This document shows, piece after piece, positions 3,001 through 55,349 of a stretch of 64,000 nucleotides of DNA. A model generated the notes under the pieces. The model was not told the origin of the DNA, did not search any database, and was given only the letters and a program-made list of their open reading frames with translations. The position numbers were made by a program, and so were the translations under genes. Every line of letters begins with the position of its first letter. Position 1 is the first letter of the stretch. Source of the stretch: a virus. Location: the IMG/VR virus record IMGVR_UViG_3300033463_000097, one strand, 5' to 3'.

Positions 3001-4302
3001 GGTAATGCTACTACGGCAACAACACTATAGACTGCAAGAACTATAACTATTAAAGATAATTCTGGGACATATAGTGGGGATAGTGTTTCATTTAATGGTA
3101 GTGCAAATATTATTTTAAAGATGCCAGCGACTATTGAAGCAACTAAATTAAAAACCGCAGTAAATTTAACGATAAAAGATAGCGATTCTTCAAACTCCGG
3201 AACAGCCGTTTCATTTAATGGCTCAGCCTCGGTAAACTTGCTTTTACCAGCGACTATTAAAGCGACATTACAAGGAAATGCTTCTACTGCATCAGCTTTG
3301 AGTCCAGGGAGAACTATTAATGGTACTACTTTTACTGGAGCAAGCAATATTACTACTGCAAATTGGGGTACTGCACGAAATATAACAATTGGAAATACCA
3401 CAAGAGCCGTTAATGGAAGTACAACCTATTCTTGGTCATTAAGTGATATTGGGGCAGCTGCCGCAACTCATACTCATAGTTATCTTCCACTCGGTGGAGG
3501 TATTATGACAGGATCTATTGGATATAACCATAGCACATAGAAAGGAACAGATCCTAGCTCTGCAGAAAGCTGGGCAATTAATTTAAAAGATTCTACAGGT
3601 CAAAACAATAATAGCCATTTTATGGCAAGGCTTTATCATGGGTTAGATGCAACTAATGGAAATAGAATTGGTCTTTATGTATATAAACCAGTTGCTGGTA
3701 CAACTAATGCAAGTTTTGTTATGCAATATATTAAAACCAATAGTGTTGCAGTAACAACCTTAGCAGGTAGTATATTAAAAGTTACATATACTGCCGATGC
3801 AACTAATCTTACATCAGGAGCACTTTAGGTATCTGGAGGTATTGGATGTGCAAAAACAATTCGTGGAAATCTTGTTTATGGAGCAGTCTGGAATGACTAT
3901 GCTGAATTTAGAAAAACAGAAATAAAAATAGAACCAGGTAGATGTATTAAAGAAATAGGCAATGATTCACTTGAATTAACTACAAAGCGTTTAGAACGAG
4001 GATGTGAAATAGTATCTGATACATTTGGATTTGCTATAGGTGAAACAGAAGAGTGCCAAACTCCAATTGCATCTAGTGGGCGTGTTCTTGCATATCCATA
4101 TGAATCTCGTGAAGAATTCGCTAAACACATTGGATGGGCAGTATGTTCTGGCCCAAATGGAACTGTTTCAATTATGACAGAAGAAGAGGAAGAAAAGTAT
4201 CCAAGTCGCATTATTGGTACAATTTCTGCGGTTCCCGATTATGAAGAGTGGGGCAGCGGAAATGTAAAAGTTAATGGGCGAGTTTGGATTCGTATTCGAT
4301 AA
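1..4302 (+). CDS. Giant tail fibre / receptor-binding protein (5' partial). Frame 1 reads through about 25 in-frame TAG codons and ends at TAA 4300-4302.
   Basis: All + strand track ORFs in this region (118, 550, 1588, 3121, 3622) are in the same frame. That frame has no TAA or TGA for 4.3 kb, only TAGs. The protein has fibre-like repeats (SHAEG..T.A.GN.SHxEG; TLYVNG..IYG) and a C-terminal region resembling the intramolecular chaperone of endosialidase-type fibres. Confidence 0.75.
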
Positions 4303-4312
4303 ACAAAAAAAA

Positions 4313-4346
4313 GGGAGTAGGTTAATATCCTACTCCCTTAATTTTA
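4313..4346. terminator. GC hairpin gggagtag/ctactccc followed by a T-run, shared by convergent genes
   Basis: The stem is 4313-4320 / 4330-4337 with the loop ttaatatc, followed by ttaatttta. Confidence 0.6.
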
Positions 4347-4642
4347 TTAAATATCCTATTTGTAACTTCAATAATTTCTTCGCCATAAGTCGCAATCAAA
4401 TCTGCCACTAATTCTTCCTAATCAACTGTCATATAGACTTCATAACTAAACATTGCAGCGTGCGTAATTTCATGACATAGAACCTTTTTGAGTTTCCAAC
4501 TAGGTATATTCCAACTAAGATAAATGGTCTTGGTATCGTCATCGCAAGCCGCGAGCGCATATTCCCCATTCTATCTCTTTACTTTTGGATGGTTTGGTGA
4601 AACTCTTTTAATGTTCCACCAAACCCCGTTAATATTAAACAT
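4322..4642 (-). CDS. small HExxH (HEITH) metallopeptidase-like protein (ImmA/IrrE-like), 2 in-frame TAG
   Basis: Hand translation gives MFNINGVWWNIKRVSPNHPKVKRqNGEYALAACDDDTKTIYLSWNIPSWKLKKVLCHEITHAAMF..., where q marks an in-frame TAG here and in the other hand translations. The gene overlaps the next one in a different frame. Confidence 0.4.
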
Positions 4643-5186
4643 TTTGTAACTTTGTTACCAAAGTATTCATTTTACGCTATAATAGTGTCTTCTCTTCTGG
4701 AGTGGCGCCCGCAATCATTTCAGTAATATCACTAGTCAATTCTTTCATATATTCATCTAGTTCTTGCATTTTCTTTGGCTAATCATGATTCATTTCTTTT
4801 GATTCCATATACATCTTGCGCTTTTGGCCGGCGCGACCTTCTCTATCATCGTGCATCATAGGATACATTTCTTCATAATAGTGAGTGTCGCCTCCAGAAG
4901 GCTAACCATCATAGTACATTCTACCATGGCGATAATCTTTATCTCTTTCGCCATATGGATAATATGGTAAGTATTTCTCCATATAGTAATATGTGCGTTT
5001 TTCATCGCCGTCTTCTTTTGCTTCCTCCATCGCTTTAACAACGGTGCAGTAGTAAATAGATTTAGATAAATCATAAATCATATCAATAACTTCGCCAAGT
5101 TCTTTTGTATCAACGCAGCGCAAGTCCACCATTTGAGTTTCAACTTGTGAAATTAATTGATCTTTTATCGTTTTCATTCTTTCCAT
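4635..5186 (-). CDS. hypothetical Tyr-rich protein, 3 in-frame TAG (extends track ORF 4902..5186)
   Basis: The codon after 4902 is cta (TAG on the minus strand). The same frame continues to TAA at 4635-4637. An RBS gagaggg lies upstream of the ATG at 5186. Confidence 0.5.
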
Positions 5187-5218
5187 TATGCAACCCTCTC
5201 AATCATAAAGTTTGCATT

Positions 5219-5611
5219 CTAGACATCTACTGGAATAGTGCTTGTATTTTCAACACTAACCTGACTGCAACATCCAACAGGAACATCAATAAAAATGCCA
5301 GCACTGACATTATTATATTCTTCAACGGCTGCTGGAGTTGAAATCATTGTTGAAGTAGCAACTGGTTCACCGTTAATTGCAATTGCTAAAGAAATAGGCC
5401 CTACTGTTTCGCCAGTAGGAACAGCGATATTAGCACTAAAATTAACGAGGAATCTTGCGCGAAGCTGTCCATTTGTCAGCCCGCGCAAGCCAACCAGTCC
5501 ACTACCCTCTCTATGTATCATAGAGATATTACCTGGCACAGCAGTTTCGGTAAAAATAACTACCTAACCCACACCAACGGTTTGAATAGCATTAGCGGTT
5601 ATTTCCATCAT
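5219..5611 (-). CDS. hypothetical (possible structural protein), 1 in-frame TAG
   Basis: A GGAGG RBS precedes ATG 5611. The track ORF 5219..5539 is the C-terminal part of this gene, in the same frame. Confidence 0.5.
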
Positions 5612-5623
5612 GTATCCTCCTTA

Positions 5624-6412
5624 TCAAGCGACAAAGCCATTGCTTAAAGCGCCGCCATAGAGGGCATTATAACCATATGTGCCATAAATACCAGTGTAGG
5701 GGTTAGCTACAAGGTATGCTGGCTGTGCGGCAGGACGCAATGCGTCAATGAGATAAGCATTTTGCTCACTCTGAGAAATTTGGCCCTTAAGAGCCTGATT
5801 TTCAGTTTGAAGAGCGGTAATGCGGTCTTGTACTAAGAAGTCAAGAATAGCACGAGTATTATTGTTAGCATTATCAATAATATCACGAGCGCCAGTTGTA
5901 ATAGCAGCACGATCAGCGCACGCCTCTGTTGCCAGATTGTAATTGAGAGCTGCAAAACCATTAGAGATATTATTGTTTGTCTGGCAATTGCCAAGCTGTA
6001 AAGCAGAAGCATTTGCTGCTAACTGACTTTGGATAGCATTAGTATTTTGTAATCCAGATACTGTACCTGCATTAATAGCCTGAATTGTTTCAAAACCACT
6101 ATTGGCGATTTGAGCCTGTGTGCCCATTAATCCCTGGTTAACTGAAGCAAAACCACTGCAAACACTACTACTAAGATCACGTATTCCGCTACTAATTCCG
6201 GCAACATCAAAGTTATATGCTACATCGGCAGTTACATTACCGGCGCCTCCGCCGTAACCGCCCCAACCATTTCCCCATCCGCCAAAAGCGAATAAAAACA
6301 GTAGGATAATCCACCAGCCGCCGGCGCCAAAACCATCACCGAACATGCCACCGCGGCCGCCAGAAACGGCAGCAATGTCAGATAAACTATAACCTTCGCT
6401 AGAATTGAACAT
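5624..6412 (-). CDS. glycine-rich membrane-associated protein (GGWGNGWGGYGGG segment followed by a hydrophobic stretch)
   Basis: This is the intact 262-aa ORF, with a GGAGG RBS. Function is unknown. Confidence 0.55.
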   Translation of the reverse strand: MFNSSEGYSLSDIAAVSGGRGGMFGDGFGAGGWWIILLFLFAFGGWGNGWGGYGGGAGNVTADVAYNFDVAGISSGIRDLSSSVCSGFASVNQGLMGTQAQIANSGFETIQAINAGTVSGLQNTNAIQSQLAANASALQLGNCQTNNNISNGFAALNYNLATEACADRAAITTGARDIIDNANNNTRAILDFLVQDRITALQTENQALKGQISQSEQNAYLIDALRPAAQPAYLVANPYTGIYGTYGYNALYGGALSNGFVA

Positions 6413-6424
6413 TTAAGTTCCTCC

Positions 6425-6661
6425 TTATAATCCAAATTGTTGTTTGAATTTAGCGAATTCAGTATCAAAGTCGAGACCTCTTTGAGCACATAAATTGCGA
6501 GCAACTTGTTCAATTCCTTTACCATCATTGTTCTGCGCCATTTTTAGTAGATTCTAACCCATTGGCGTATTACCCATTCTTTGTTCTAACATATTCATTG
6601 CTAATTGCTGAGGATTTTGTCCTCCTCTTATCGCTGCTATAAATTGCATTATGTTCTACAT
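6425..6661 (-). CDS. small hypothetical protein, TAG as 2nd codon and one internal TAG
   Basis: GAGGAGG RBS with 7 nt spacing to ATG 6661. The frame is continuous to TAA 6425-6427. Confidence 0.45.
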
Positions 6662-6675
6662 TCAGAAACCTCCTC

Positions 6676-7062
6676 TTAAAATCTGAACTCTTCTTTAGAA
6701 GTCTGCTGCGATTGAGTTTGATCAGGACTCTTCTCAACAAGATTAGTCTATGCTAATGCCTATTTAATTGCGGTTAATGCAGAATTAAATTCTTCTCGCG
6801 TTACGTATTCATTCCCCGCCGGGGCGGTTGGAATATCTTTTAATTCATACATATTTAATGCTGCGGTGCCGTCCAGATTGCATTGTTTAGTATAAATCTT
6901 CCCGTTGGCCAAATCGGGAAAAAATGTTACCGAGCCATCAAAATCGACCGCCGCCGCTCTTACTTCTTCCAGTCCAGATACCGGACGCCCCTTTAATCCT
7001 ATCATTTGCCGAGCCGTTGTATTTGGTGGAGTATAATAATAATTTTGTGGTTGATATGGCAT
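6676..7062 (-). CDS. hypothetical protein, 2 in-frame TAG after track ORF 6760..7062
   Basis: AAGGAGG RBS. The stop listed at 6760 is cta (TAG on minus). The frame continues to TAA at 6676. Confidence 0.55.
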
Positions 7063-7795: not shown

Positions 7796-8206
7796 TTACG
7801 CAGCAATTTTTATCATCTTATTTTCTTTAACTGCTTCTTCAATTTTTGTTTTAATATATTCATCCAAATCGCCGATAGCCTCACTTAAATATCTATCGGC
7901 CTCTTCTGTCATTGTAACAATGATTGTTTCATAGACACGCTTAAAAGCCTCTTCTTGTGCTTCTTTTGTAAATGCATTCTTTTCTTTAAGAGCATCTACA
8001 TAAGTTTGATTAACCGCAATTACCGCAGAAACAATTGTGTCATTCAACATTTCCACATACTTCTGGACTTTTTGGTCTTTTGCACTGGCCTTGATTTCAT
8101 TTGCCTTTGCATTAATCCATTTTACTGCATATCCAACAAGAGCAATTAGAAGTGGAATTAACACTGTCTAAGTAATAGTTTTTAATAGTTCTTGAAAGTC
8201 TGCCAT
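7796..8206 (-). CDS. membrane-anchored protein, Holin_LLH-like (one N-terminal TM, then a charged helical tail), 1 in-frame TAG
   Basis: The protein reads MADFQELLKTITqTVLIPLLIALVGYAVKW... A GGGGAG RBS precedes the start, and the frame matches track ORF 7796..8164. Confidence 0.4.
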
Positions 8207-8207
8207 A

Positions 8208-8696
8208 TTATTCTCCCCAATCATAAGAATTGTTTTGTTGTTTTATTATATGGGCTCCAATACATATAGCATCACATTCATCTTGTGTAGGAGTAACACC
8301 ATAGTTTGTAGTAACCCACTATTGCGCGGCGCGTTTTTGTTCGGGACGGGTTTTACCCTTTATACCAAGAGTAGATTTCCATGTTCCGGCAAGAACCGCC
8401 GTATTTTTTATTTCCATATCAGTAAATAGTTCATAACAAACTCCAAATACTTCGGCAAGTATTTTAAATGTTGAGACATTGTTTATTCGCTATCCATCCA
8501 TATATATATCTTCAAAAGCGACTTCATCAATATCAAAATTCATAATTAATTCCGCGATGCGGTCCCGCAACTAATTCAGCCGCAGACCTATGTCGTCAGT
8601 TGTCAAATCAATCTTACCATACTCTTGGAGTTCGCCATCTTTAAAATAAGCCCATCCGGTTATTCTGCTGCTTTGGTCTAGCGCAAGCAGTCTCAT
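8208..8696 (-). CDS. ruvC: RuvC-like Holliday junction resolvase, 3 in-frame TAG
   Basis: It begins MRLLALDQSSRITGWAYF and contains VAFEDIYMD and DECDAICIGAHII, carrying the catalytic D, E, D and H residues. The ATG overlaps the dut stop (ATGA). Confidence 0.7.
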
Positions 8697-9262
8697 GATG
8701 TAGAACCAAAACCGCCTTTACGCTTTTGATAACGCTCTTGGAGAGCAATATCATCTTCGGTAATTAGGTAAGGCAGAATAACACCTTGACCTATACGGTC
8801 TCCTTTTTTGAGCTGAATATCAAATGGAGAAAGATTAATCAACTGGAATTGAATATGACCTTCATTATCTTCGTTATTGTAATAATCTCTGTCGATAATA
8901 CCTACTCCATTAGCAAGAATTAACCAATTTTTTAGCGGGGTAGATGAACGAACACTTATTTGTAAATAAGTATCATGGTCTAATTTACACTTAATTCCAG
9001 TAGGAACAAGTGTTGGACGGGCCTTTGTGGTTTTGGTTAAATTTGCCAGTTCTTCTAAATTCAGGGTTAGACGATTATGATAAGTATATTCTTTTTCATC
9101 GGGAAGATATGAGAAATATATCTTATCTTGATGCCCGAGAATACTCGGTACCACAGTATCTTGCGCGACGAAAAAATCATAACCTACGCTACCATCTGTT
9201 GCGCGACGCGGCAGTAATTCTTTATTATCTTTATAGTCGGTAATTAGTTCAAACTTACTCAT
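8693..9262 (-). CDS. dut: dUTP diphosphatase
   Basis: dUTPase motifs are present (RSS, GIIDRDYYNNEDNEGHIQFQLINLS, RIGQGVILP). Confidence 0.85.
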   Translation of the reverse strand: MSKFELITDYKDNKELLPRRATDGSVGYDFFVAQDTVVPSILGHQDKIYFSYLPDEKEYTYHNRLTLNLEELANLTKTTKARPTLVPTGIKCKLDHDTYLQISVRSSTPLKNWLILANGVGIIDRDYYNNEDNEGHIQFQLINLSPFDIQLKKGDRIGQGVILPYLITEDDIALQERYQKRKGGFGSTS

Positions 9263-9525
9263 TAAAACTGCACCTCAAAATCCTTTACATTATAACTTAC
9301 GTCAGCCTGCACTAAGGGGTCTTTTTCATCAGTAAATACTTTGGTAAGACTTAATCTATACCATTCGTCAATTACTTCACCCTTTGCTTTCTTTTCCTTT
9401 TTAATGCAACTATATTTAGCAAGGATAAAACTTGGATTACTTTTCTCTTCTTCGATAATATTTTTTGCTTCGTCAGCATCGTCAACGCGATATGTTTCTG
9501 TAGTTGAAATTAAATATTTAGACAT
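9262..9525 (-). CDS. hypothetical protein
   Basis: Intact 87-aa ORF in the operon. Confidence 0.45.
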   Translation of the reverse strand: MSKYLISTTETYRVDDADEAKNIIEEEKSNPSFILAKYSCIKKEKKAKGEVIDEWYRLSLTKVFTDEKDPLVQADVSYNVKDFEVQF

Positions 9526-9836
9526 TAAAAATCTCCTCCGATTGGATTAATATATACTTCTACATTATTATATGCAAAATTAGTCTTATTCTTTAATATG
9601 TTTTGCCTTACTCTTTCAATATGGGTAACTGGGCCGTATAATGCCACTGTTTTAATCTCAACATTCTTACATAAGTCTGAGATTGTTTCTGCGGCATGAA
9701 TAAATGGAGTTGTTTCTTGAAATAGAGTATGTCCTTCGCCAAGCACATAAATAGTGCAATTCAAATAACCATTTTGGTCTAGTTTACAAACTATTGATTT
9801 TGATTTATCCATGATAATAAACACATCCTTCATCAT
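9525..9836 (-). CDS. hypothetical protein
   Basis: Intact 103-aa ORF. Confidence 0.45.
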   Translation of the reverse strand: MMKDVFIIMDKSKSIVCKLDQNGYLNCTIYVLGEGHTLFQETTPFIHAAETISDLCKNVEIKTVALYGPVTHIERVRQNILKNKTNFAYNNVEVYINPIGGDF

Positions 9837-10311
9837 AAGGAATTAGTATAAACATTTTAGAACCTTTATCAGTTTTTAGCCAAATCTCAGCATATCCTTC
9901 ATAAATATCATATCCTTTTAGCGCACCAACGTAATGCATACAATCAACAAGAGAATCGGCAAATGAATCTAATGTATCGTCATCTCGCTGAAAGATTGTA
10001 ATATATTTATAATCATGCTGTAGAAACACCAATGTCTTATAGGCTTCTGAAAATTTGCCAATATCTTCTTTAAACTTTTCAATATCTTCGAAGTCTGGCA
10101 TTTGGTCCATAAGTTGCTCGTTCAATTCCATTAGCGAGAATGTAATTTCGCTACCAATCGGAGCAACCCAATCCCCATCTTTATATGTAAATACTTTATG
10201 ATTTTCATCTACAATTGCGGTATCGCCTTCAGTAAAATGGTGCATAATCTTCGGGATAGACCGCAATATTTTTTCTGTTTCATAATGATATATAGCCAAA
10301 AATTTCACCAA
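9805..10311 (-). CDS. hypothetical protein
   Basis: Intact 168-aa ORF with a promoter directly upstream. Confidence 0.5.
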   Translation of the reverse strand: MVKFLAIYHYETEKILRSIPKIMHHFTEGDTAIVDENHKVFTYKDGDWVAPIGSEITFSLMELNEQLMDQMPDFEDIEKFKEDIGKFSEAYKTLVFLQHDYKYITIFQRDDDTLDSFADSLVDCMHYVGALKGYDIYEGYAEIWLKTDKGSKMFILIPYDEGCVYYHG

Positions 10312-10323
10312 CTTTTTTCTTTT

Positions 10324-10352: not shown

Positions 10353-10364
10353 TTTTATAATTCT

Positions 10365-47256: not shown

Positions 47257-47289
47257 ATAAGCCTCCTAGCAACCAGGAGGCTTATATTT

Positions 47290-47481: not shown

Positions 47482-48425
47482 TCTGTCAAATCAATCATAT
47501 AATTACTACTATCTCCAAGAACTGTACTCGGCAGCACGCCATCCCACTGCTTAATCCAATAGTAGTTAATAAGATCTGGTGTCAATGCGGCCGCAATACG
47601 CTCGTTCATATTGGCTTCGCGCTCACCGGCATACAGAGCCGCGTCTGCCTGAACCTTGACAACTTCAAGGTCTGCTTTCGCTGCAATAATGTCCTGTTCA
47701 GCCTTGGCGTTTGCTGCAATAATAGCGCGTTCCGCTTCTGCTTCTTGCTCCATTGTTTTCTGCGCCTGCTGGGTTTCTGCTGTCAGTTTGTTCTGTGCTG
47801 CAACTTGTTTTGCTTCAACAGCCGAAGTAAAAGCATCGGTAAAGTCAAGGTCTTCAACAGCGATTGAAATAATTTGAATCCCATATCCCTGCATATCTTC
47901 TCGCATCAAATCAACAATGGAAGAAGATAGGATTTCTCGTTTTGAAATTAGGTTTTCCGCAGTATATTGAGAGAAGATTGCCTTCGTATTCTCCTGGATG
48001 CGAGGGTACATAATGCTTTCATAGTAATTCTTACCAACGGTACGATACAATTCTCGCGCAGTCTGCTGGTCGATACAATAGTTTACTGACATAATAATAT
48101 CGACCTGCTGGATATCACTAGAAAACGCGGAAGTTGTGATTTCTACCTTCTGGGCTCGATTATCCATTGTTACAACTCTCTGCCAAGGAGCAATAAAGTT
48201 GATACCAGCACTTACTGTACGCTCTTCAACTGCTCCAAACGTCGTTAAAATACCAGTATATCCAGTCGGTACGATACCAATACAACTAACAATAAAAAGA
48301 ATAATTGCTATAATTAAAAATACTACTCCAACAACTTTTGGAACTGATTCTTTTATAGCAATACCCCATACGAATGCAACAATTGCTCCAATAATAAGCA
48401 GAATTGCAAGAATAAACCAAATCAT
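47478..48425 (-). CDS. SPFH/band-7 domain membrane protein
   Basis: An N-terminal TM helix, an SPFH core and a coiled-coil tail (AEAERAIIAANAKAEQD). Confidence 0.65.
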   Translation of the reverse strand: MIWFILAILLIIGAIVAFVWGIAIKESVPKVVGVVFLIIAIILFIVSCIGIVPTGYTGILTTFGAVEERTVSAGINFIAPWQRVVTMDNRAQKVEITTSAFSSDIQQVDIIMSVNYCIDQQTARELYRTVGKNYYESIMYPRIQENTKAIFSQYTAENLISKREILSSSIVDLMREDMQGYGIQIISIAVEDLDFTDAFTSAVEAKQVAAQNKLTAETQQAQKTMEQEAEAERAIIAANAKAEQDIIAAKADLEVVKVQADAALYAGEREANMNERIAAALTPDLINYYWIKQWDGVLPSTVLGDSSNYMIDLTE

Positions 48426-48440
48426 TATTTTTCTCCTTTT

Positions 48441-48821
48441 TTAATTTTTTGTACAGGTTGGGCCACCTGGTGCATATAGATTATAGAACATACATTCTGA
48501 TTGAACACAGGGAAGAAATTCCTCTTCCATCCACTCTGCTCTTGGAAGATTCAGCATAACTTTTTCTCCTTCGATATGAGTAGCATAATCATTCTGATAG
48601 AAGATAGTCTTCTTGCGAAAAGGACAGAGCTTTGGCTTTATTGGCTCAGGTTGAGAAATTGCTGTAGTAGAGGGTTGGGACCAATCCGGCTGAGGATCTC
48701 CAGTTCCTCCGTTGCTCTTAAACGGTTTCCACGGGTAAGGGTAATCATCTTCTCTGAAGGTAGGAGCTTGTGGAAGTTCCATTTCTTCTTTTGAAACAAT
48801 TAAATTATCTGGATTATACAT
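48441..48821 (-). CDS. hypothetical protein
   Basis: 126-aa ORF. Confidence 0.4.
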   Translation of the reverse strand: MYNPDNLIVSKEEMELPQAPTFREDDYPYPWKPFKSNGGTGDPQPDWSQPSTTAISQPEPIKPKLCPFRKKTIFYQNDYATHIEGEKVMLNLPRAEWMEEEFLPCVQSECMFYNLYAPGGPTCTKN

Positions 48822-49109
48822 TTATTCACCATCCATTTTTGCGCCACAGTTGGGACAATAGTTATGTGCAAATTGATGTAAAGCTCCAAGATATATTTCT
48901 TCACCGCATTTACTGCATAGAGCAATATCATCTTGTGGAGAATATTTTAATATTCCATGTATTACTGGCGCTACATCTGCGGCTGGTATGTTTTTTATTT
49001 CTTCTAATGCCCACTTAGTCTCTACTTCAATATAAGAAGCGTTACAGGACCAGTCTATAAGAGTTTCTTTAAGTGTGTCTTTGGTTACATATTCATCCAT
49101 TTTCTTCAT
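48822..49109 (-). CDS. hypothetical zinc-ribbon protein
   Basis: Contains CSKCGEE...CPNCG. Confidence 0.4.
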   Translation of the reverse strand: MKKMDEYVTKDTLKETLIDWSCNASYIEVETKWALEEIKNIPAADVAPVIHGILKYSPQDDIALCSKCGEEIYLGALHQFAHNYCPNCGAKMDGE

Positions 49110-49275
49110 CCTCTCTTTCTAAAAAACACGGACAAGGTTCATCTTTATCGGTAAGTGAATACTTGCCACAATGATAGGTATGATTTCCGTCCATATACAG
49201 AGAGAAAACATGGATATTCTCACAGCGCTGACATTGCGCTGCAAGTTCATCCCAATGTCCTTGACAGTATATCAT
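49093..49275 (-). CDS. hypothetical Cys/His-rich small protein
   Basis: 60-aa ORF. Confidence 0.35.
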   Translation of the reverse strand: MIYCQGHWDELAAQCQRCENIHVFSLYMDGNHTYHCGKYSLTDKDEPCPCFLEREDEENG

Positions 49276-49295
49276 TTTTGAACCTCCGCTTCATC

Positions 49296-49538
49296 TTACG
49301 CTACAGGCATAGGTCCAACCGGTTCTGCGGGCAACGCTCTTACCTGCTCAATGATGCTATTCAATACTTGCTCAGTTTCATCTGAACAAGCACAGAACTC
49401 ACCAAAGACAATATCAAAGATACTGTCTTTGGTGACATATTCGGGGGTTGGATGCTCTGTTTTCTGAATCAGTCTGTCTATGGCAGAATCTAATTCATCT
49501 ATGCAGGCACAGAACTTATCTAATTCGGCATCATTCAT
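49296..49538 (-). CDS. hypothetical protein
   Basis: 80-aa ORF. Confidence 0.35.
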   Translation of the reverse strand: MNDAELDKFCACIDELDSAIDRLIQKTEHPTPEYVTKDSIFDIVFGEFCACSDETEQVLNSIIEQVRALPAEPVGPMPVA

Positions 49539-49643
49539 CCTGAACCTCCTGGGCCTCTTTTATTTTATTCATAAGATAATCATAACTCATTTTATCAATT
49601 TCCCAATATGGAATTCTAACTAAAGGAGGCTAATCAATTAATC

Positions 49644-50987
49644 TCAAATGTCCTGTGCTTCCTCGCCAATTAGTTCCTCTCGCTCCTCCATATCAGGCTC
49701 GGCCGCAAGGTCCTTGGCCAGGCCTTCGAGAACCTTGAAACTAAAGTTCTTATGCTTGTAGGCGCAGAACTTCGGACGGTTTACAATGCGGATAACAACG
49801 CCCTCGCGCACGTGAGTCTTGCCGATAGGGTCGGGACCATCGTAAAACATTTCTGCCATCTCCTTGACATAGTTGCCGGGAGATGCCCAGCCGCCGCAGT
49901 TATCGGGGATAATGCCGCGGAACAGAAGAGGAACGCAGTTAGCGCCCATCTGCTCGCAGCGATAGCGTAGATAGTCAGGCGGATACTCTGTAACGTCGCC
50001 ATCCTCATTGGTAATGGTCATACGATAGACATAGCAGGCGGACTGAGGAGGCTCGCAGCCATAAGAGAAAACAGTAGTCTTGCCATACTGCTTAGAGAAC
50101 TCCTTATCAGAAATCTTGCTGTTGGAAACAGAAGGCATGATAGGAGCGCCGGTGTCGGTAAAGCCGACAATCTCGTAGTAGACAGTCTCACCCTTGCGCA
50201 GCTTACCCTCGAAGAACTTTGCGTGCGGCGCACGGAACGCATTATTGCCGTAATATCCGCCATCATCGAAGTCATTGAGAACAACACGGCGAGTTCCGGT
50301 TACATAGCCCCAGTCATAGATGGGAGTACCCTCACGACGGAAAATCTTGTCCCAGAAAGTGCGCTTGTAACCCTGGAACTTAGGCAGATAGCCAGTACGT
50401 CCAGAAGTACCATGCATCTTCAAAGTAATCTCAATCAGATCCTTCTCTTTGAACGCACCGAGGTTATATGCCAACTGCTCAGTATCGGCGTGCTCTGCAA
50501 ACAGAGGAGCCAGAGGGACACTCTTTTTGCGAGTACGATTACCCTCACTGACATGACCCTGACGAATATTGCTCTTCGGGATATACTTACGGCAAATTTC
50601 ATGCCCGTTCAGCATCTCAATCTTATCACCGACCTCGAACTTGGTCTCGCCAGTGTAAGCCAGAGACTCAAGCGGCATATACAGCCCTTCGGACTTCTCG
50701 CCGCGCAACTTCATCGCGCGAATATTGCGCTTATCGGGGTCAAGATAACCACCGATGTTATTTCCATTTTCGTCCTTTTTACGGACAAGGTTATTCTGAG
50801 CGCAGTACTCCTCGCTCAACTGGAGGTCGATAGGGAAGTATACTCCGATATCGCCAACCTTAACATCCAGACCAACGATAACAGAAGCGCCGAAGATAGT
50901 CGCAATCTGAAGACGGTCTGCATTAGAGTGCGGACTCAACTCTGCGATTTTTACAACGTAGCCAACATGCTCGCTCATTTTTATCAC
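49644..50987 (-). CDS. ATP-dependent RNA ligase (Rnl2-like KxHG nucleotidyltransferase) with an N-terminal tRNA-binding OB domain; GC-rich gene
   Basis: The N-terminal region reads VVKIAELSPHSNADRLQIATI (tRNA-binding domain-like) and motif I is KMHGTSGR (T4 Rnl2 has KIHGTN). The gene is ~55% GC, carries a long antisense ORF and has no TAG. Confidence 0.6.
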   Translation of the reverse strand: MIKMSEHVGYVVKIAELSPHSNADRLQIATIFGASVIVGLDVKVGDIGVYFPIDLQLSEEYCAQNNLVRKKDENGNNIGGYLDPDKRNIRAMKLRGEKSEGLYMPLESLAYTGETKFEVGDKIEMLNGHEICRKYIPKSNIRQGHVSEGNRTRKKSVPLAPLFAEHADTEQLAYNLGAFKEKDLIEITLKMHGTSGRTGYLPKFQGYKRTFWDKIFRREGTPIYDWGYVTGTRRVVLNDFDDGGYYGNNAFRAPHAKFFEGKLRKGETVYYEIVGFTDTGAPIMPSVSNSKISDKEFSKQYGKTTVFSYGCEPPQSACYVYRMTITNEDGDVTEYPPDYLRYRCEQMGANCVPLLFRGIIPDNCGGWASPGNYVKEMAEMFYDGPDPIGKTHVREGVVIRIVNRPKFCAYKHKNFSFKVLEGLAKDLAAEPDMEEREELIGEEAQDI

Positions 50988-51007
50988 TCCTTTATTTTTC
51001 TATATAT

Positions 51008-51036
51008 ATTATATCATTTTTTTTTATAAAAATCAA
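51008..51036 (-). promoter_or_regulatory. sigmaA-type promoter TTGATT-17-TGaTATAAT
   Basis: Consensus elements upstream of the RNA ligase. Confidence 0.6.
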
Positions 51037-51046
51037 GAGGGGAATT

Positions 51047-51316
51047 TTAATTCCCCTCTATAAGATAATGTTTGTAGATTGTGTCGATTTCTATCTGCGC
51101 AATGTCATCAATATAGAAATCTTCGCGGCGAGGGTCATCATCATCCCAGGTATTAACAATATCATGATGTTTATCTAGCCAATCATCAATACCTTCATTA
51201 ATTGATGCGCCATACCAATCCCAATTATCAACTCCACCGCTTTCAAGATAACTAAGTTTAATTGAATCTTGAAGCATATTTTTTAATACATCTTCTGCAA
51301 TTTTATAATATCTCAT
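51047..51316 (-). CDS. hypothetical acidic protein
   Basis: 89-aa ORF. Confidence 0.4.
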   Translation of the reverse strand: MRYYKIAEDVLKNMLQDSIKLSYLESGGVDNWDWYGASINEGIDDWLDKHHDIVNTWDDDDPRREDFYIDDIAQIEIDTIYKHYLIEGN

Positions 51317-51585
51317 CTGAATCCCTGAGCCTCCAGTTGTGACATAGCCATATATAGCATACGCCCTGACTTACTTTTGGTTTTCTCAACCATACCCATT
51401 TCAACAAGTTCATTGAGACATCGTGCCATTTTCTGACTTGTCTGGCCAGCGAGACTTACACGCTGCGCGCAAATTTCATTGATAGTCAATGCTACTGGAC
51501 TTTCATTTAGAACATCCAATGCGTCTAGGGTGATTGCTTGCGTCTGTTCCTTAGTGTATTTTGATGTTTTTCTATATGCTGGCAT
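51313..51585 (-). CDS. winged-helix DNA-binding protein
   Basis: A wHTH is predicted (MARCLNELVEMGMVEKTKSKSGRMLYMA). Confidence 0.45.
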   Translation of the reverse strand: MPAYRKTSKYTKEQTQAITLDALDVLNESPVALTINEICAQRVSLAGQTSQKMARCLNELVEMGMVEKTKSKSGRMLYMAMSQLEAQGFR

Positions 51586-51586
51586 G

Positions 51587-51703
51587 TTACTTCTCCTTAT
51601 GATTTTTATGCTGCCGTTCAGTGATGAATGAGCCTAGCGCCATTCCCGCAAAAAATAGGACGAGCGCCGCACAGCCCGCTACAAAATACAAATATACATT
51701 CAT
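51587..51703 (-). CDS. very small membrane peptide (MNVYLYFVAGCAALVLFFAGMALGSFITERQHKNHKEK)
   Basis: Sits between a promoter and the wHTH gene; the stop overlaps the next ATG. Confidence 0.35.
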   Translation of the reverse strand: MNVYLYFVAGCAALVLFFAGMALGSFITERQHKNHKEK

Positions 51704-51731
51704 AAACAACATTCCTTTACTTTATATATCT

Positions 51732-51760
51732 ATTATATCATATTTTTTATATAAAGTCAA
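51732..51760 (-). promoter_or_regulatory. sigmaA-type promoter TTGACT-17-TGaTATAAT
   Basis: Exact consensus elements. Confidence 0.6.
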
Positions 51761-52668
51761 AGACAAGGCCATTTTGAACTTTCATTTACCGGTTTCCAAC
51801 CTAAACATTTATTGTTTTCATCTACATGGTCGCACATACATCCACCAAACCACCCACAATTATCACAGGTCTAGTCGTCATCAATGTGAAAATATGGACT
51901 TTTTATAAGCCACCAGTCTAATTCGCCAGTTGCATCATAGTTTTGCCACCGATGCCAAATATCATCAATATTTTCTGTATCTTTGAAAAACTGCTCTACA
52001 TGCGGTCTCTCCAGGCGGTCGGCATGATAATGTCCGAAACACCAGATATTTCCAATCATATTATGTTTAATGTTTTCAAGAAAAATTTCCATTTTCTTTT
52101 CAACTTTGCTTTGGTCAATAAAGCCTAGAAACAAATCGGTTGGCTCCCATTGAATTGGGCAAGTATGAGTTAGCATGAAATCAACTTTTTGATTGGAAAA
52201 ATATTGAAGTGCTGCGCTCATTTCATACGAATCTAGTTGTTCGTCTTGAAACCATTGTGCACCACGCTCTAAACGATAGAATTTATCAACCGAGTATGCG
52301 CCACCAATAATACCAATTTTATAATTGAGAATGTAGTAGATGCCAAAATCTCTAAAATATCTAATATTAGGCCACCGCGGTTGATAATAAACCTCGCCAT
52401 TTACATCGCGGTCATAGACCATTTCCATACCGTCAACATTCTGCGGCCGCGCCTCATGGTTCCCACGAACACAATAAATTTTAAATTTATAAGTTTTACT
52501 TATTTTATTTTTAAGATGACTGTCTCTGTCATCGAGAAAATAGTTAAATCCTGCGTCGCCAAGGATAATTACCGCAGTGTTTTCATCCTGTTGGATTTCT
52601 TTATCATAGTTGCGAAAACGAGAAAAATCAGCATGAGTGTCTCCCGTAATCAGCACTTTATTAATCAT
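51757..52668 (-). CDS. second calcineurin-like metallophosphoesterase with a Cys-rich C-terminal tail, 1 in-frame TAG
   Basis: MPP motifs ITGDTHAD, ILGDAGFNY, VRGNHE and GHYHAD. The track stop at 51871 is cta (TAG on minus), and the frame continues through CDNCGWFGGCMCDH. Confidence 0.7.
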
Positions 52669-52768
52669 TTTATCACATACTTTCTATAAAAATACTCCCA
52701 AAGGGTATGATAAAGAAAGATGCTATTCAAAGCATATTCATCATACCATTTCATTTTTTTAATCCTCC

Positions 52769-53173
52769 TTATTTATTATACCATGCTACAAAAGTAGTTC
52801 CTTTTGGATATCTATACGGACGACTCCAATTAATGGGACCGAGTTCTTCTCCACCAAAAGCAATATAATCTCCCTGTCCATCATAGGCGTTGAAAGATCC
52901 ATTTTCTACCATTTTGGCAAATATATCCGCTAAAAATAATTCTCCAAAAGTAAATTTTTTGTTGTAAACAAGATAAATCATTTGTTCACACAACTGTTGA
53001 AGTTGTTCCTTTTCTTCAGTAGCATTATATGTTTTATCTTTTTGTTTATTTTCTTCTATCAACGCTGCTGAATAATAAAATTGATTAAGAATACTATTAA
53101 TCATATAAGAATCAGGTTTTTCCATTATCATACTCCCATTTATACCAGTCATAAATTTCTTCTGGTGAATCAA
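52769..53173 (-). CDS. hypothetical protein
   Basis: 134-aa ORF. Confidence 0.4.
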   Translation of the reverse strand: MIHQKKFMTGINGSMIMEKPDSYMINSILNQFYYSAALIEENKQKDKTYNATEEKEQLQQLCEQMIYLVYNKKFTFGELFLADIFAKMVENGSFNAYDGQGDYIAFGGEELGPINWSRPYRYPKGTTFVAWYNK

Positions 53174-53303
53174 AAACTTGTTTAGTAGTCCAACCGCAAT
53201 GAGTGCAAACAGGATAATAATACACCAGTAAAGAATGCCAATTAATGTTTTTAGCGATATATAGTTGAGTTTTGCATTTGGGGCAGTAAATTTTTTTATT
53301 CAT
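53112..53303 (-). CDS. small zinc-ribbon protein
   Basis: Contains CPKC...CTHCG. Confidence 0.35.
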   Translation of the reverse strand: MNKKIYCPKCKTQLYIAKNINWHSLLVYYYPVCTHCGWTTKQVFDSPEEIYDWYKWEYDNGKT

Positions 53304-54120
53304 TTACTGCCTCCATATCTCTTTGAACACTAATTTTCATAATTTCATATGCAACATCATCTAGAAGTTCATCAATAGTACGATCAACTGGGTCTTTTTC
53401 GTGAATAGTAATAAAATTATCGCAAATAGAGTGAATTTCATCATAAGTTTCTTTTGCGATTTTTCTAGCATCTTCCAAATTATGGCAACCGAGTTTTACC
53501 TCTTTCAAATATTCTGGCTGTTTAGTAATGAGGCAACTGCCATAATCTTCTCCAGAGATATATCTTTTTAGATATTCAGATACTCGTAGGAGGTGTGAAA
53601 GTTGTTTCGGGTCGTAGCCGTATTTCTCAATCCAAGGCATGCGCGCAGGATAGTGATGTTCCATGGCGAAATACTTTTCAGACGCAATACCCATCATAGA
53701 CTTGACGCTGCGCACACGGTCGTAGTGAGTGATTTCCTCGCGATGCTCAATTAGACGTTCCCATTCGTGGTAGAAGCCGGTATTTGGACACCAAAAGTAT
53801 GGAGTATAGAGAATCTCAAGGAAGTTGAGATTCTGCTTGCGGAAAGTCTGAACGTAGAGCCGAATGTCTTTGAGGTCAATATGCTCTTCGTTTTCTCTGA
53901 TGTGTGTGGTGCTTAGAGGCTTCCGCGCAAGCGCAATCTCTTTGAAACTCGGTGTCACAATGCATTTTGTATCAATATCAGAACCTTCATAATCCAGACC
54001 GTAGTTTTGACTACCCTGTAGGAAGATGCCAACAATATGCTTTTCGGGGACAAGAGTACGAGCTTCATCAAGATGCTCCATTACTCGTTTCATAATTTCT
54101 TTATCAGAATGGTAATTCAT
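53296..54120 (-). CDS. nucleotidyltransferase-fold protein (Pol-beta superfamily GS...DxD)
   Basis: Contains GIFLQGSQNYGLDYEGSDIDT. Confidence 0.55.
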   Translation of the reverse strand: MNYHSDKEIMKRVMEHLDEARTLVPEKHIVGIFLQGSQNYGLDYEGSDIDTKCIVTPSFKEIALARKPLSTTHIRENEEHIDLKDIRLYVQTFRKQNLNFLEILYTPYFWCPNTGFYHEWERLIEHREEITHYDRVRSVKSMMGIASEKYFAMEHHYPARMPWIEKYGYDPKQLSHLLRVSEYLKRYISGEDYGSCLITKQPEYLKEVKLGCHNLEDARKIAKETYDEIHSICDNFITIHEKDPVDRTIDELLDDVAYEIMKISVQRDMEAVNE

Positions 54121-54166
54121 TTACAGCCCTCCTTCATGAAAATGGTTCAAATGTCCATTCTTTTTT

Positions 54167-54649
54167 CTACTTATTAGAAGCCCGCCCAGCGCATCTCCGC
54201 AATTCTTCAATCATAGCATCTTGCTCTTTTTGAAGTTGTTCTACTCTCTTGGCGCCTTCTTCGCGGACCGTTTTTGCCAAGGCGAGAACTTCCTGGGTAT
54301 TTTCATAATCCTCGCCACGCTTTTCTAATTCTTTTTTATATTTGAGATACTTGCGATAATCTTTTCTCGTTAAAAATTTGATATAAATATATTTCCATTT
54401 ACGATATTGATTACTATTATATATATTCTTTCTATATACTGGAAGATAATAATATCGACTATCATCCCAATTGGAGTTTAACATATGCTCCCAATGATCT
54501 GGGTCTGCATTATAGAAAGTGAGCCATTGATCAAATGTTAGCCAGGTAACTCTTTCAGGACAAGATGATAATTCTTCATCATCCTGTCCGAATCTGGCTT
54601 TTTTATGCCATTTATACCTTAACATTCTTAAACAGTTTCTCCTTTCCAA
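54167..54649 (-). CDS. hypothetical basic protein
   Basis: 160-aa ORF. Confidence 0.4.
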   Translation of the reverse strand: MERRNCLRMLRYKWHKKARFGQDDEELSSCPERVTWLTFDQWLTFYNADPDHWEHMLNSNWDDSRYYYLPVYRKNIYNSNQYRKWKYIYIKFLTRKDYRKYLKYKKELEKRGEDYENTQEVLALAKTVREEGAKRVEQLQKEQDAMIEELRRCAGRASNK

Positions 54650-54851
54650 AATCTGTCAGCCAATAAACCATCTTGCCGGCCGCGCCAGACTTACCAACGT
54701 AACCAGCAGAGACGAGCGGCCGCAGCGTTCCAGAAATAGACTGAGGAGTAACAACCTCATTATATTTGCGGTAAATGAATCCCTTAATTTCAAAACTATT
54801 GAGGCAGGGATGCTCGTCCAGAACCTTAACAATCATATCCTTGTTAGCCAT
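54612..54851 (-). CDS. hypothetical small protein
   Basis: 79-aa ORF. Confidence 0.4.
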   Translation of the reverse strand: MANKDMIVKVLDEHPCLNSFEIKGFIYRKYNEVVTPQSISGTLRPLVSAGYVGKSGAAGKMVYWLTDFGKEKLFKNVKV

Positions 54852-54886
54852 TTTTTATTACTCCTTTATCATTTATTTCTATATAT

Positions 54887-54915
54887 ATTATATCATTTAT
54901 TTTTATAAAAATCAA
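54887..54915 (-). promoter_or_regulatory. sigmaA-type promoter TTGATT-17-TGaTATAAT
   Basis: Consensus elements. Confidence 0.55.
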
Positions 54916-55328
54916 TTAGAAATTCTACTGTGATAGAACCTATCTATTGGTTCCCAATCCTCTACCGCAATACCGCCACAATGATATTTCTCAAACAAGT
55001 TATAATAACAAATTGTTAGATATGTATCATCCATCCAGTCAGGATATACTTCTTCTTTTGAAAGAATTGTGTAATTTGGTTTAAGAGAAATAATTTTCTG
55101 CCATACACTTTCCATCGTGCGATAGCCACGTTTCATCATCTCTTGGCGAATAAGCCAGGAGTATGTGATAAAATGGTCATAATCATACTTAAGAACTTTA
55201 TTTACTAAGATATGATTTGGTGTGCCGTCTTTGATGATTCCTCCTGCAATTGCACTACACTCACGCCATTGCGCTACAAGATGTTCGCGTGACAATAACG
55301 GAATAAGATCTTTATGCCATAATCTCAT
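54912..55328 (-). CDS. hypothetical protein (first gene of the minus block)
   Basis: 138-aa ORF with a promoter directly upstream. Confidence 0.45.
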   Translation of the reverse strand: MRLWHKDLIPLLSREHLVAQWRECSAIAGGIIKDGTPNHILVNKVLKYDYDHFITYSWLIRQEMMKRGYRTMESVWQKIISLKPNYTILSKEEVYPDWMDDTYLTICYYNLFEKYHCGGIAVEDWEPIDRFYHSRISN

Positions 55329-55349
55329 AATATACTCCTTTTTTATTTT

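What the first reader, a model, noticed from the sequence alone, without database searches (positions are those of the whole stretch)
4300..55330. TAG sense codons are unevenly distributed: core replisome genes have none, primase, RecJ, nrdD, ung and structural or coiled-coil genes have many
The TAG-free genes are the PolIII-alpha-like polymerase (1317 codons), both helicases, ligA, the gyrA/gyrB-like genes, rnhA and dut. Counts elsewhere are about 7 in primase, 3 in RecJ, at least 2 in nrdD, 2 in ung, about 8 in the endolysin, about 25 in the big fibre and about 14 in the GIY-YIG/coiled-coil gene (about 12 of them in ~160 codons). The three GC-rich genes (29843-30109, the RNA ligase, the Ro-like vWA gene) are also TAG-free. 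This pattern fits either a temporal expression switch (genes needing the suppressor tRNA are expressed after it accumulates) or different evolutionary ages of the genes.
Basis: seen in the sequence. Interest (0 to 1): 0.6.

Follow-up and report, generated by a model that had tools for sequence, protein, structure and literature searches.

The report
Uneven amber-codon use in recoded phage
This is part of a large phage genome that reads the stop codon TAG as glutamine, and TAG is kept out of the genes that sit just behind host-type promoters but used freely in later-positioned tail, lysis and some replication genes, a pattern already described for other recoded gut phages.

Summary
Under code 15 (TAG read as an amino acid) the window holds 79 tightly packed genes with 133 in-frame TAGs. 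Their distribution is far from uniform: chi2 is 231, against a maximum of 192 in 50,000 simulations. PolIII-alpha, both helicases, LigA, GyrA, GyrB, RNase H and dUTPase have none.

- **Meaning of TAG:** it aligns to Gln codons in relatives.
- **What TAG replaces:** it replaces CAG almost one for one.
- **Conservation:** the partition holds in TAG-recoded relatives at 40-85% protein identity. Orthologues of TAG-free genes carry 1.9 TAG per 1000 codons, and orthologues of TAG-using genes carry 13.6. This argues for selection, not chance or recent acquisition.
- **Transcription architecture:** genes between a host-type extended -10 promoter and the first terminator carry 2.6 TAG per 1000 codons. 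Genes after terminators or without such a promoter carry 12.7.
- **Suppressor tRNA:** it is not in the window. A related contig places a tRNA(CUA) directly next to the same Lys-Lys-Cys tRNA array that is cut by the window's right edge.

The temporal-switch reading is therefore supported indirectly. The evolutionary-age reading fits at most two or three GC-rich cargo genes. The phenomenon and the model were published by Borges et al., so this is a new lineage of a known kind.

The parts
1..4302 (+). Tail-fibre-like gene, cut at its 5' end: 1433 codons, 25 in-frame TAGs, TAG/(TAG+CAG) = 0.89
   Evidence: no Pfam hit
4322..7062 (-). Six-gene unit without a consensus promoter, all of unknown function (PHROG hits without annotation): 11 TAGs in 898 codons. 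Only the Gly-rich gene 5624-6412 is TAG-free
7796..17363 (-). Unit behind promoter 17415-17387. PolIII-alpha (0 TAG in 1317 codons), DUF3310 (0), NrdD (2), NrdG (2), three small genes (0), dUTPase (0), RuvC-like (3), holin (1). It ends at terminator 7793-7748
17402..18962 (-). Unit behind promoter 19021-18993: small gene (1 TAG) and SF1 helicase (0 TAG)
19133..25050 (-). Block after terminator 25100-25069 with no consensus promoter of its own. phrog_4680 gene (1 TAG), DnaB (0), small gene (0), Toprim primase 21693-22796 (8), RecJ 19902-21674 (8), Phage_lysozyme2 (1). Gaps between the genes are 0-20 nt
25106..27418 (-). Unit behind an extended -10 promoter upstream of 27418: wHTH gene, gene of unknown function, AAA_24 ATPase. 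0 TAGs in 758 codons
27457..29792 (-). Block after terminator 29831-29804. TM/coiled-coil/GIY-YIG gene 28824-29792 (12 TAGs), 28536-28814 (2), 28247-28534 (0), ThyA-like gene (0)
29843..37928 (-). Nearly TAG-free stretch behind promoters 38052-38023 (or the TGTTATAAT site just upstream of ung), 32395-32367, 30443-30415 and 30193-30165. UDG (2 TAGs), small gene (0), RNase H (0), GyrB (0), GyrA (0), LigA (0), 30190-30381 (1), GC-rich 88-residue gene (0)
38024..40056 (-). Block after terminator 40106-40080: three-domain endolysin (NAGPA + SPOR + Amidase_2; 9 TAGs, three of them at codons 4, 6 and 32) and a TM protein (0 TAG)
40094..45278 (-). Two units behind TTGCTT-17-TGCTATAAT promoters that nevertheless use TAG. 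Cys-rich protein (3), radical SAM (9), PIN-PhoH (3), 41649-42074 (2), and two TAG-free small genes
45485..55328 (-). Six short units behind consensus promoters: 18 genes, 2980 codons, 3 TAGs. Metallophosphatases, AAA_33 kinase, Band7, RNA ligase, gp5.9-like protein, wHTH proteins, RlaP-like nucleotidyltransferase, DenV
55455..60878 (+). Plus-strand block of nine genes, tail-fibre-like: 17 TAGs in 1732 codons, TAG/(TAG+CAG) = 0.81
   Evidence: (XkdV_N faint, XkdX)
61053..62600 (-). GC-rich (0.54) DUF2828/DUF7788 Ro-like gene behind promoter 62713-62685: 0 TAGs in 515 codons
63766..64000 (-). tRNA array Cys(GCA), Lys(UUU), Lys(CUU). The last tRNA is cut by the window's end. No tRNA(CUA) is inside the window
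   Evidence: In the related contig L045 the order is Sup(CUA)-Lys(CUU)-Lys(UUU)-Cys(GCA)

Best explanation
The window belongs to a large uncultivated phage; an independent assembly of it is 132 kb. Its SD sites and promoters are of the Firmicutes type. It uses genetic code 15, in which TAG means Gln, but only in part of its genes.

**Shown here:**
- TAG stands where relatives have Gln codons.
- TAG replaces CAG almost one for one.
- TAG/(TAG+CAG) is bimodal: 0 in one set of genes and 0.8-1.0 in another.
- The same sets hold in recoded relatives.

**Inferred mechanism:**
1. After injection, host sigma-A RNA polymerase fires at about 17 extended -10 promoters (TTGAYT-17-TGnTATAAT).
2. The genes just behind these promoters contain almost no TAG. 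They include anti-host and repair functions, gyrase, ligase, PolIII and small wHTH proteins. Unmodified host ribosomes with active RF1 can translate them.
3. The tRNA array is transcribed from the same promoter type. By synteny with a related contig, it carries a tRNA(CUA) just beyond the window's right edge.
4. Full-length protein from TAG-containing genes appears only once the suppressor can outcompete RF1. These genes are the fibre and other tail-like genes, endolysin, GIY-YIG protein, primase, RecJ, radical SAM and PhoH.
5. Several of the most TAG-rich genes also lie behind intrinsic terminators without their own promoter. Transcriptional delay and translational delay would then act in the same direction.

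**Inferred evolution:** CAG changes to TAG by C-to-T transition under AT pressure. Where TAG is tolerated it drifts to the T/C equilibrium seen at Leu codons. In genes that must work before the code switch it is purged.
For: **Code 15 is in use.** Coding density is 94.5% with TAG read as sense. Pfam domains span the TAGs.

**TAG means Gln.** Window TAGs align mostly to CAA, TAG or CAG in close recoded relatives: 49 of 98. That level of conservation is close to the one for window CAG (63%) and CAA (61%).

**TAG replaces CAG.** (CAG+TAG)/Gln-type codons is 0.48 in TAG-free genes and 0.46 in TAG-using genes. TAG/(TAG+CAG) is 0 in 11 genes and at least 0.8 in 8 genes, counting genes with at least 5 such codons.

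**Neutral control.** Leu TTG/(TTG+CTG) is 0.53-0.63 even in TAG-free genes, yet none of their 155 NAG-type Gln codons is TAG. In TAG-using genes TAG/(TAG+CAG) is 0.71, close to the Leu values of 0.69-0.80.

**Conservation.** In recoded relatives, orthologues of TAG-free genes carry 45 TAGs in 23,120 aligned codons (1.9 per 1000). Orthologues of TAG-using genes carry 152 in 11,170 (13.6 per 1000). PolIII has 0 in 2662, GyrA 0 in 3847, LigA 0 in 2564. The GIY-YIG gene has 64 in 1869.

**Architecture.** Promoter-proximal genes carry 32 TAGs in 12,164 codons. Post-terminator or promoter-less genes carry 101 in 7,959 (Mann-Whitney p = 7e-5). The early region 45485-55328 has 3 TAGs in 2980 codons, although it is mostly small accessory genes.

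**Suppressor.** L045 carries tRNA(CUA), scoring 39 bits in Rfam. It lies directly 5' of Lys(CUU)-Lys(UUU)-Cys(GCA) and behind a TTTGCA-17-TATAAT promoter; a 52-nt stretch covering that promoter is 85% identical to the window's LigA promoter region.

**Published model.** Borges et al., bioRxiv 10.1101/2021.08.26.457843.
Against: - There are no expression or proteome data. Promoters and terminators are consensus matches only; the number of promoter-like matches in each region is at or near what shuffled sequence gives. I made the A/B assignment after seeing the TAG counts.
- There are exceptions in both directions. The units behind the two TTGCTT promoters use TAG heavily (radical SAM has 9). 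DnaB and ThyA-like are TAG-free inside post-terminator blocks.
- Primase is needed for replication, so replication itself would have to wait for the suppressor. The simple picture of early replication and late structure does not fit this.
- TAG-free status of dUTPase, SF1 helicase, DnaB and AAA_24 is not conserved. Relatives have up to 6 TAGs in these genes.
- The suppressor tRNA was not found in this phage, only in a relative whose kinship rests on a tRNA array and a promoter.
- No release factor, aminoacyl-tRNA synthetase or RF1 antagonist was seen in the window.
Confidence: 0.6

Rival explanations
1. Different evolutionary ages. TAG-free genes were acquired recently from standard-code sources and have not yet accumulated CAG-to-TAG changes.
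For: The RNA ligase, the DUF2828/vWA gene and the AAA_33 kinase have GC of 0.46-0.54 against about 0.36 for the window, and use almost only CAG for Gln. No orthologue above 36% identity of the first two was found in the fetched parts of relatives. The family contains standard-code members as close as the recoded ones: DnaB is 71% identical in L025 and L036. The code change is therefore recent.
Against: PolIII, GyrA, GyrB and LigA have ordinary GC (0.34-0.41). They are present in all relatives and stay TAG-free in several recoded lineages at 40-82% identity, while neighbouring genes carry TAGs. The GC-rich 88-residue gene is 81-88% conserved in several relatives. Leu first-position T/C in TAG-free genes is already AT-shifted at 0.53-0.63.
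Confidence: 0.12
2. Cost avoidance without timing. Amber decoding is leaky or slow, so genes whose products must be full-length and accurate avoid TAG whatever their time of expression.
For: The most consistently TAG-free genes are long, multi-domain, essential enzymes: PolIII, GyrA, GyrB and LigA. TAG-free genes also differ in general codon use, with GC3 of 0.31-0.34 against 0.24 and more AAG, GAG and CTG. This could reflect selection on translation.
Against: The fibre, at more than 1433 codons, has 25 TAGs. Essential primase and RecJ have 8 each. The nearly TAG-free region 45485-55328 consists mostly of small accessory genes with no special need for accuracy. Length is therefore not the determinant.
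Confidence: 0.15
3. Compositional drift only. TAG density simply follows local AT content, with no selection on TAG itself.
For: TAG/(TAG+CAG) correlates negatively with GC3 (Spearman -0.58, p = 4e-5). Out-of-frame TAG trinucleotides are about 35% rarer in TAG-free genes.
Against: Out-of-frame TAG is still 11-16 per 1000 codons in TAG-free genes while in-frame TAG is 0 in more than 10,000 codons. The distribution is bimodal rather than graded. Class membership is conserved across relatives.
Confidence: 0.05

Closest known systems
Alternatively coded gut phages of Borges et al. [quoted passage not shown]
   Same: Only part of the genes carry in-frame recoded stops. Structural and lysis genes are recoded, and use in replication genes is variable. 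Standard-code and recoded members are close relatives. The model is that early genes are translated in the standard code and late genes after suppressor tRNAs appear. The method is the same: recoded codon counted against the standard codons for that amino acid, per gene family.
   Different: This lineage has a YorL-type PolIII-alpha (40% identical to that of SPbeta), gyrase and NAD-ligase, in contigs of 130-200 kb. I could not assign it to any named clade, and it has no near match in INPHARED. Here TAG-rich and TAG-free replication genes sit in one gap-free block (DnaB, primase, RecJ). The endolysin is TAG-rich but the holin has only one TAG.
TAG-recoded crAss-like phages (Yutin et al. 2021, PMC7886860; Peters et al. 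2022, PMC9523058)
   Same: TAG is read as Gln. The papers listed deal with phage-encoded suppressor tRNAs and late genes. The abstract of Peters et al. reports metaproteomic evidence for code 15. I did not read these two papers in full.
   Different: crAss-like phages infect Bacteroidetes (abstracts listed). From my own knowledge, they have a different replication apparatus and a block-wise genome layout. No homology was detected here beyond generic domains.
phAss-1 / proposed Phassvirus (Babkin et al. 2023, PMC10607447)
   Same: A TAG-recoded gut phage of about 136 kb with 36 tRNAs, three of them tRNA-Sup(CUA). About 28% of its ORFs are recoded. Orthologues differ between species in whether they carry TAG, including dUTPase, NrdG and holin, as I see here between relatives.
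   Different: There is no nucleotide match above about 85% in INPHARED, whose release postdates the deposit of phAss-1. No polymerase hit was closer than that of SPbeta.

Membership tests
Code-15 (TAG read as Gln) recoded phage | In-frame TAGs inside genes whose homology continues across them, and compact gene models only when TAG is read as sense | tested here: met
   94.5% coding with TAA/TGA stops. NRDD, DHH/RecJ_OB, PhoH, UDG and Amidase_2 domains span TAGs. The family-search tool refuses the standard-code translation of RecJ because it contains 8 stops.
Code-15 (TAG read as Gln) recoded phage | TAG positions correspond to Gln in homologues | tested here: met
   Q is the commonest partner in both directions. 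At codon level, 49 of 98 window TAGs face CAA, CAG or TAG in close relatives.
Code-15 (TAG read as Gln) recoded phage | Phage-encoded suppressor tRNA with anticodon CUA | tested here: inconclusive
   None in the window or in about 30 fetched loci of relatives. The window's tRNA array is cut at 64000. A related contig, L045, has tRNA(CUA) directly 5' of the same Lys(CUU)-Lys(UUU)-Cys(GCA) array.
Code-15 (TAG read as Gln) recoded phage | Host uses the standard code | not testable with these tools
   The host was not identified. The only genome hit was a tRNA-Lys 3' half in a Gemmiger MAG of 68% GC, which is uninformative.
Partitioned code use (early genes in standard code, late genes recoded; Borges model) | Recoded codon enriched in structural and lysis genes and avoided in a defined set of other genes, beyond chance | tested here: met
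   Chi2 is 231 against a maximum of 192 in 50,000 simulations. Fibre 17.4, endolysin 15.8 and the plus-strand tail block 9.8 TAG per 1000 codons, against 0 for PolIII, gyrase and ligase.
Partitioned code use (early genes in standard code, late genes recoded; Borges model) | Avoidance is a property of gene families across related recoded genomes | tested here: met
   1.9 against 13.6 TAG per 1000 aligned codons in orthologues. The test uses few lineages and is not corrected for phylogeny.
Partitioned code use (early genes in standard code, late genes recoded; Borges model) | TAG-free genes are expressed before TAG-containing genes | not testable with these tools
   Only indirect evidence: predicted promoter and terminator positions.
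Partitioned code use (early genes in standard code, late genes recoded; Borges model) | Code-change genes (release factor, aminoacyl-tRNA synthetase), which only some clades have | tested here: not met
   No RF or aaRS domain in any window gene. The rest of the genome was not seen.
Recoded intron or free-standing homing endonuclease (as in Agate phages) | GIY-YIG gene with a sporadic, mobile distribution, inserted in or next to an early gene | tested here: not met
   The GIY-YIG domain is present. However, the gene has a TM helix and a coiled coil, and it is conserved at 29-53% identity in nearly all relatives fetched for this region (10 of the 20 tabulated loci), standard-code ones included.

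The most novel reading that the evidence does not exclude
Inside one promoter-less, gap-free gene block, DnaB is readable in the standard code while the primase and RecJ immediately downstream need eight amber read-throughs each. The code switch would then act as a translational checkpoint within a single mRNA. The start of phage DNA replication, and not only lysis and assembly, would wait until the suppressor tRNA has taken over.
Probability: 0.15. Interest if true: 0.55.

Novelty: new member of a known kind. Interest (0 to 1): 0.3.

Why it matters
The window gives a clean, quantified example of partitioned genetic-code use in an undescribed phage lineage that carries a YorL-type polymerase and gyrase.

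Three details make it useful:
- TAG has replaced CAG almost completely in permissive genes and not at all in protected genes.
- The protected set is conserved across relatives.
- The split follows predicted promoter and terminator positions, not functional modules.

For annotation, the practical point is that such genomes need code 15. For biology, it offers a set of paired genes, such as DnaB against primase and RecJ in one block, on which the translational-timing hypothesis could be tested directly.

Tried and rejected
- **Whole-window ORF totals.** I compared totals under alternative codes. Removing any stop codon lengthens ORFs in all six frames, so this was not discriminating and I did not use it.
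- **Nucleotide search of INPHARED.** No match.
- **Looking for the same phage.** Exact 50-mer searches of genome and metagenome collections gave no match. An exact tRNA 27-mer in IMG/VR gave no match.
- **Encoding-contig look-up.** The look-up that worked found an independent 132-kb ENA assembly, which stops just before the tRNA array.
- **tRNA scans of fetched loci of relatives.** No tRNA(CUA).
- **Host identification.** The Gemmiger MAG hit is a bacterial tRNA-Lys in DNA of 68% GC, not a host clue.
- **TAG position and context.** TAGs show only a weak 5' shift (mean relative position 0.446, KS p = 0.01), and mis-set starts may inflate it. The base after TAG does not differ from that after CAA or CAG (p = 0.42).
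- **Late-promoter motif.** A k-mer scan of intergenic DNA recovered only the early extended -10 motif.
- **GIY-YIG gene as a mobile homing endonuclease.** Rejected, because the gene is conserved across the family.
- **PHROGs.** It added only the holin and gave no structural assignments.

Full report
**What the window is.** With TAA and TGA as the only stops, the window resolves into 78 tightly packed genes covering 94.5% of it; after correcting starts there are 79 genes. Most have strong AAGGAG-type ribosome-binding sites. Genes at 4322-55328 all lie on the minus strand. A 5'-cut fibre gene (1-4302) and a nine-gene tail-like block (55455-60878) lie on the plus strand. Pfam identifies the following:
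- a replication and nucleotide-metabolism set: PolIII-alpha, SF1 helicase, DnaB, Toprim primase, RecJ, LigA, GyrA, GyrB, RNase H, UDG, dUTPase, NrdD, NrdG, a ThyA-like gene and a RuvC-like gene
- a three-domain endolysin
- PIN-PhoH and a radical SAM enzyme
- an RNA-repair-like set

PHROGs adds a holin. The polymerase is about 40% identical to YorL of SPbeta, and INPHARED holds no close nucleotide match. An independent 132-kb ENA assembly carries the same genes. IMG/VR holds relatives at 40-85% protein identity on contigs of 100-200 kb.

**TAG is a sense codon for glutamine.** Domains run across the in-frame TAGs. In close recoded relatives, 49 of 98 window TAGs face CAA, TAG or CAG. This is about the same conservation as for the window's own CAG (63%) and CAA (61%). 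All 79 gene models end in TAA or TGA. This follows from how the models were built, but the compact fit of the models supports it.

With corrected starts there are 133 TAGs in 20,123 codons.
- Chi2 is 231.1, against a simulated mean of 78 and a maximum of 191.7 in 50,000 simulations.
- There are 44 TAG-free genes holding 10,357 codons, where 25.8 TAG-free genes are expected.
- The stated range 4300-55330 alone gives chi2 of 211.3 against a maximum of 157.7.
- Counting TAG against Gln codons gives the same answer.
- Poisson probabilities of zero TAG, are below 0.0005 for PolIII, 0.005 for GyrA, 0.013 for LigA, 0.015 for GyrB, 0.031 for DnaB and 0.064 for the SF1 helicase.

Primase is 8, endolysin 9 and GIY-YIG 12. 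RecJ is 8, not 3. The apparent hot spot in the coiled coil is a Gln-rich stretch with an ordinary TAG share of 0.48.

**TAG replaces CAG.**
- The share of NAG-type codons among Gln-type codons is the same in both gene sets: 0.48 in TAG-free genes and 0.46 in TAG-using genes.
- In the first set these codons are all CAG (155 CAG, 0 TAG). In the second they are mostly TAG (138 TAG, 57 CAG).
- Per gene, TAG/(TAG+CAG) is bimodal. It is 0 in 11 genes and 0.8-1.0 in 8 genes, with a few in between.
- The synonymous Leu pair TTG/CTG differs by the same first-position T/C change and serves as a neutral yardstick. Its T share is 0.69 in TAG-using genes, close to their TAG share of 0.71. It is still 0.53-0.63 in TAG-free genes, where the TAG share is 0.
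- Out-of-frame TAG remains common in TAG-free genes, at 11-16 per 1000 codons.

TAG therefore behaves as a neutral synonym of CAG in one set of genes and is excluded from the other.

**The partition is conserved.** The family contains both standard-code and TAG-recoded members. In eight non-redundant recoded loci, orthologues of the window's TAG-free genes carry 1.9 TAG per 1000 aligned codons, and orthologues of TAG-using genes carry 13.6.

| Gene | TAGs / aligned codons in recoded relatives |
|---|---|
| PolIII | 0 / 2662 |
| GyrA | 0 / 3847 |
| LigA | 0 / 2564 |
| GyrB | 2 / 2623 |
| GIY-YIG/coiled-coil | 64 / 1869 |
| PhoH | 19 / 2034 |

The rule is not absolute. DnaB has 6 TAGs in L023, AAA_24 has 6 in L033, and dUTPase has 2-5. 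Such lineage-specific differences were also reported for phAss-1 and its relatives. The sample of lineages is small and not corrected for shared ancestry.

**Relation to transcription signals.**
- About 17 intergenic sites on the minus strand share one motif, TTGAYT-17-TGnTATAAT, often followed by ATATATAGAA.
- Strong intrinsic terminators follow several units: 7793, 19134, 25100, 29831, 38021, 40106, 42155, 45486, 47285 and 51059.
- Genes between such a promoter and the first terminator carry 32 TAGs in 12,164 codons (2.6 per 1000; TAG/(TAG+CAG) = 0.16).
- Genes after a terminator or without such a promoter carry 101 TAGs in 7,959 codons (12.7 per 1000; 0.68). Mann-Whitney p is 7e-5.
- The region 45485-55328, six short units of mostly small accessory genes, has 3 TAGs in 2980 codons.
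- The endolysin, the GIY-YIG gene and the block holding DnaB, primase and RecJ each start right after a terminator, with no promoter of their own.

There are caveats. The signals are consensus matches. I made the assignment after seeing the TAG counts. Two units behind TTGCTT-type promoters use TAG heavily. DnaB is TAG-free inside a post-terminator block.

**The suppressor tRNA.** The window has only Cys(GCA), Lys(UUU) and a cut Lys(CUU) at its right edge. A 27-nt match to the Lys(UUU) tRNA found one metagenomic contig, L045. Its tRNA order is tRNA(CUA)-Lys(CUU)-Lys(UUU)-Cys(GCA). The CUA tRNA scores 39 bits against the Rfam tRNA model. The array lies behind a TTTGCA-17-TATAAT promoter; a 52-nt stretch covering it is 85% identical to the window's LigA promoter region. 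L045 also carries a flagellin-like gene with an in-frame TAG. By synteny the suppressor should lie just beyond position 64000. This is an inference, not an observation.

**Interpretation.** The best-supported reading is the published one (Borges et al.).
- A set of genes is kept readable in the host's standard code because they must work before the phage's suppressor tRNA takes over.
- The remaining genes are free to use TAG and are thereby delayed.
- The evolutionary-age alternative fits at most the GC-rich RNA ligase and DUF2828/vWA gene. It is contradicted for the core enzymes and for the conserved GC-rich 88-residue gene.
- A pure cost-avoidance model is weakened by the 25 TAGs in the fibre and by the TAG-poor small accessory genes.
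- Pure compositional drift cannot give 0 of 155.

What is less expected is the mixture inside the replication module. Primase and RecJ (8 TAGs each) follow TAG-free DnaB with gaps of 0-20 nt. If timing is the cause, replication itself would wait for the code switch. Borges et al. already note that recoding of replication genes is variable.

**Verdict.** The phenomenon is known and the lineage is new. Interest is modest.

Noticed in passing
window, minus strand: 55378-55350, 54915-54887, 51760-51732, 51036-51008, 47256-47228, 32395-32367, 30443-30415, 30193-30165, 19021-18993, 17415-17387, 62713-62685, the gap 10312-10340, and others: About 17 copies of one promoter-like motif, TTGAYT-17-TGnTATAAT, often followed by ATATATAGAA. 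It is the only repeated intergenic motif found. No separate late-promoter motif was detected.
   Followed up: partly
window 51313-51712 (-): The 441-nt gap holds two small TAG-free genes that the first gene pass missed: a 41-residue transmembrane peptide (51587-51712) and a 90-residue wHTH protein (51313-51585). Both lie behind a consensus promoter.
   Followed up: partly
window 54612-54851, 51313-51585, 29843-30109, 27056-27418 (-): Small wHTH-like proteins sit directly behind early-type promoters. The GC-rich 88-residue one (29843-30109) is 81-88% identical in several relatives, standard-code ones included. They may be regulators or nucleoid proteins.
   Followed up: no
window 45485-54120 and 61053-62600 (-); L045 1591-1704: An RNA-repair-like gene set: RNA ligase, AAA_33 kinase, two metallophosphatases, an RlaP-like nucleotidyltransferase and a Ro-like DUF2828/DUF7788 protein. 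In the related contig L045, a YrlA-like Y RNA match (36 bits, below the gathering score of 69) lies directly 5' of the CUA tRNA.
   Followed up: no
window 51047-51316 (-): An 89-residue protein matches the T7 gp5.9 RecBCD-inhibitor family (PF25708, E = 8e-8).
   Followed up: no
window 42728-45278 (-): A 295-residue protein has a long C-terminal Cys-rich repeat (GCxGxC-type). A small gene and a radical SAM enzyme follow in the same unit. This could be a peptide-modification pair.
   Followed up: no
window: PhoH codon 446 of 448, NrdG 151 of 158, 41649-42083 140 of 144, 57423-58703 419 of 426, and four more: Eight of the 133 TAGs lie in the last ~10 codons of genes. They may be former TAG stops now read through to a nearby TAA or TGA. 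About 4.7 are expected by chance, so this is not significant.
   Followed up: partly
L025, L036, L032 and other IMG/VR loci: Standard-code relatives are as close to the window (DnaB 71% identical) as the TAG-recoded ones, so the code changed within this family over a short evolutionary distance.
   Followed up: partly
window 38350-40056 (-): The endolysin combines NAGPA (phosphodiester glycosidase), SPOR and Amidase_2 domains. Three of its 9 TAGs are at codons 4, 6 and 32.
   Followed up: no
L001 1198-2907 and L003 3672-5402: In two relatives the primase region is split into two ORFs of 295 and 254 codons, where the window has one gene of 367 codons. This could be an insertion or a different domain arrangement.
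   Followed up: no
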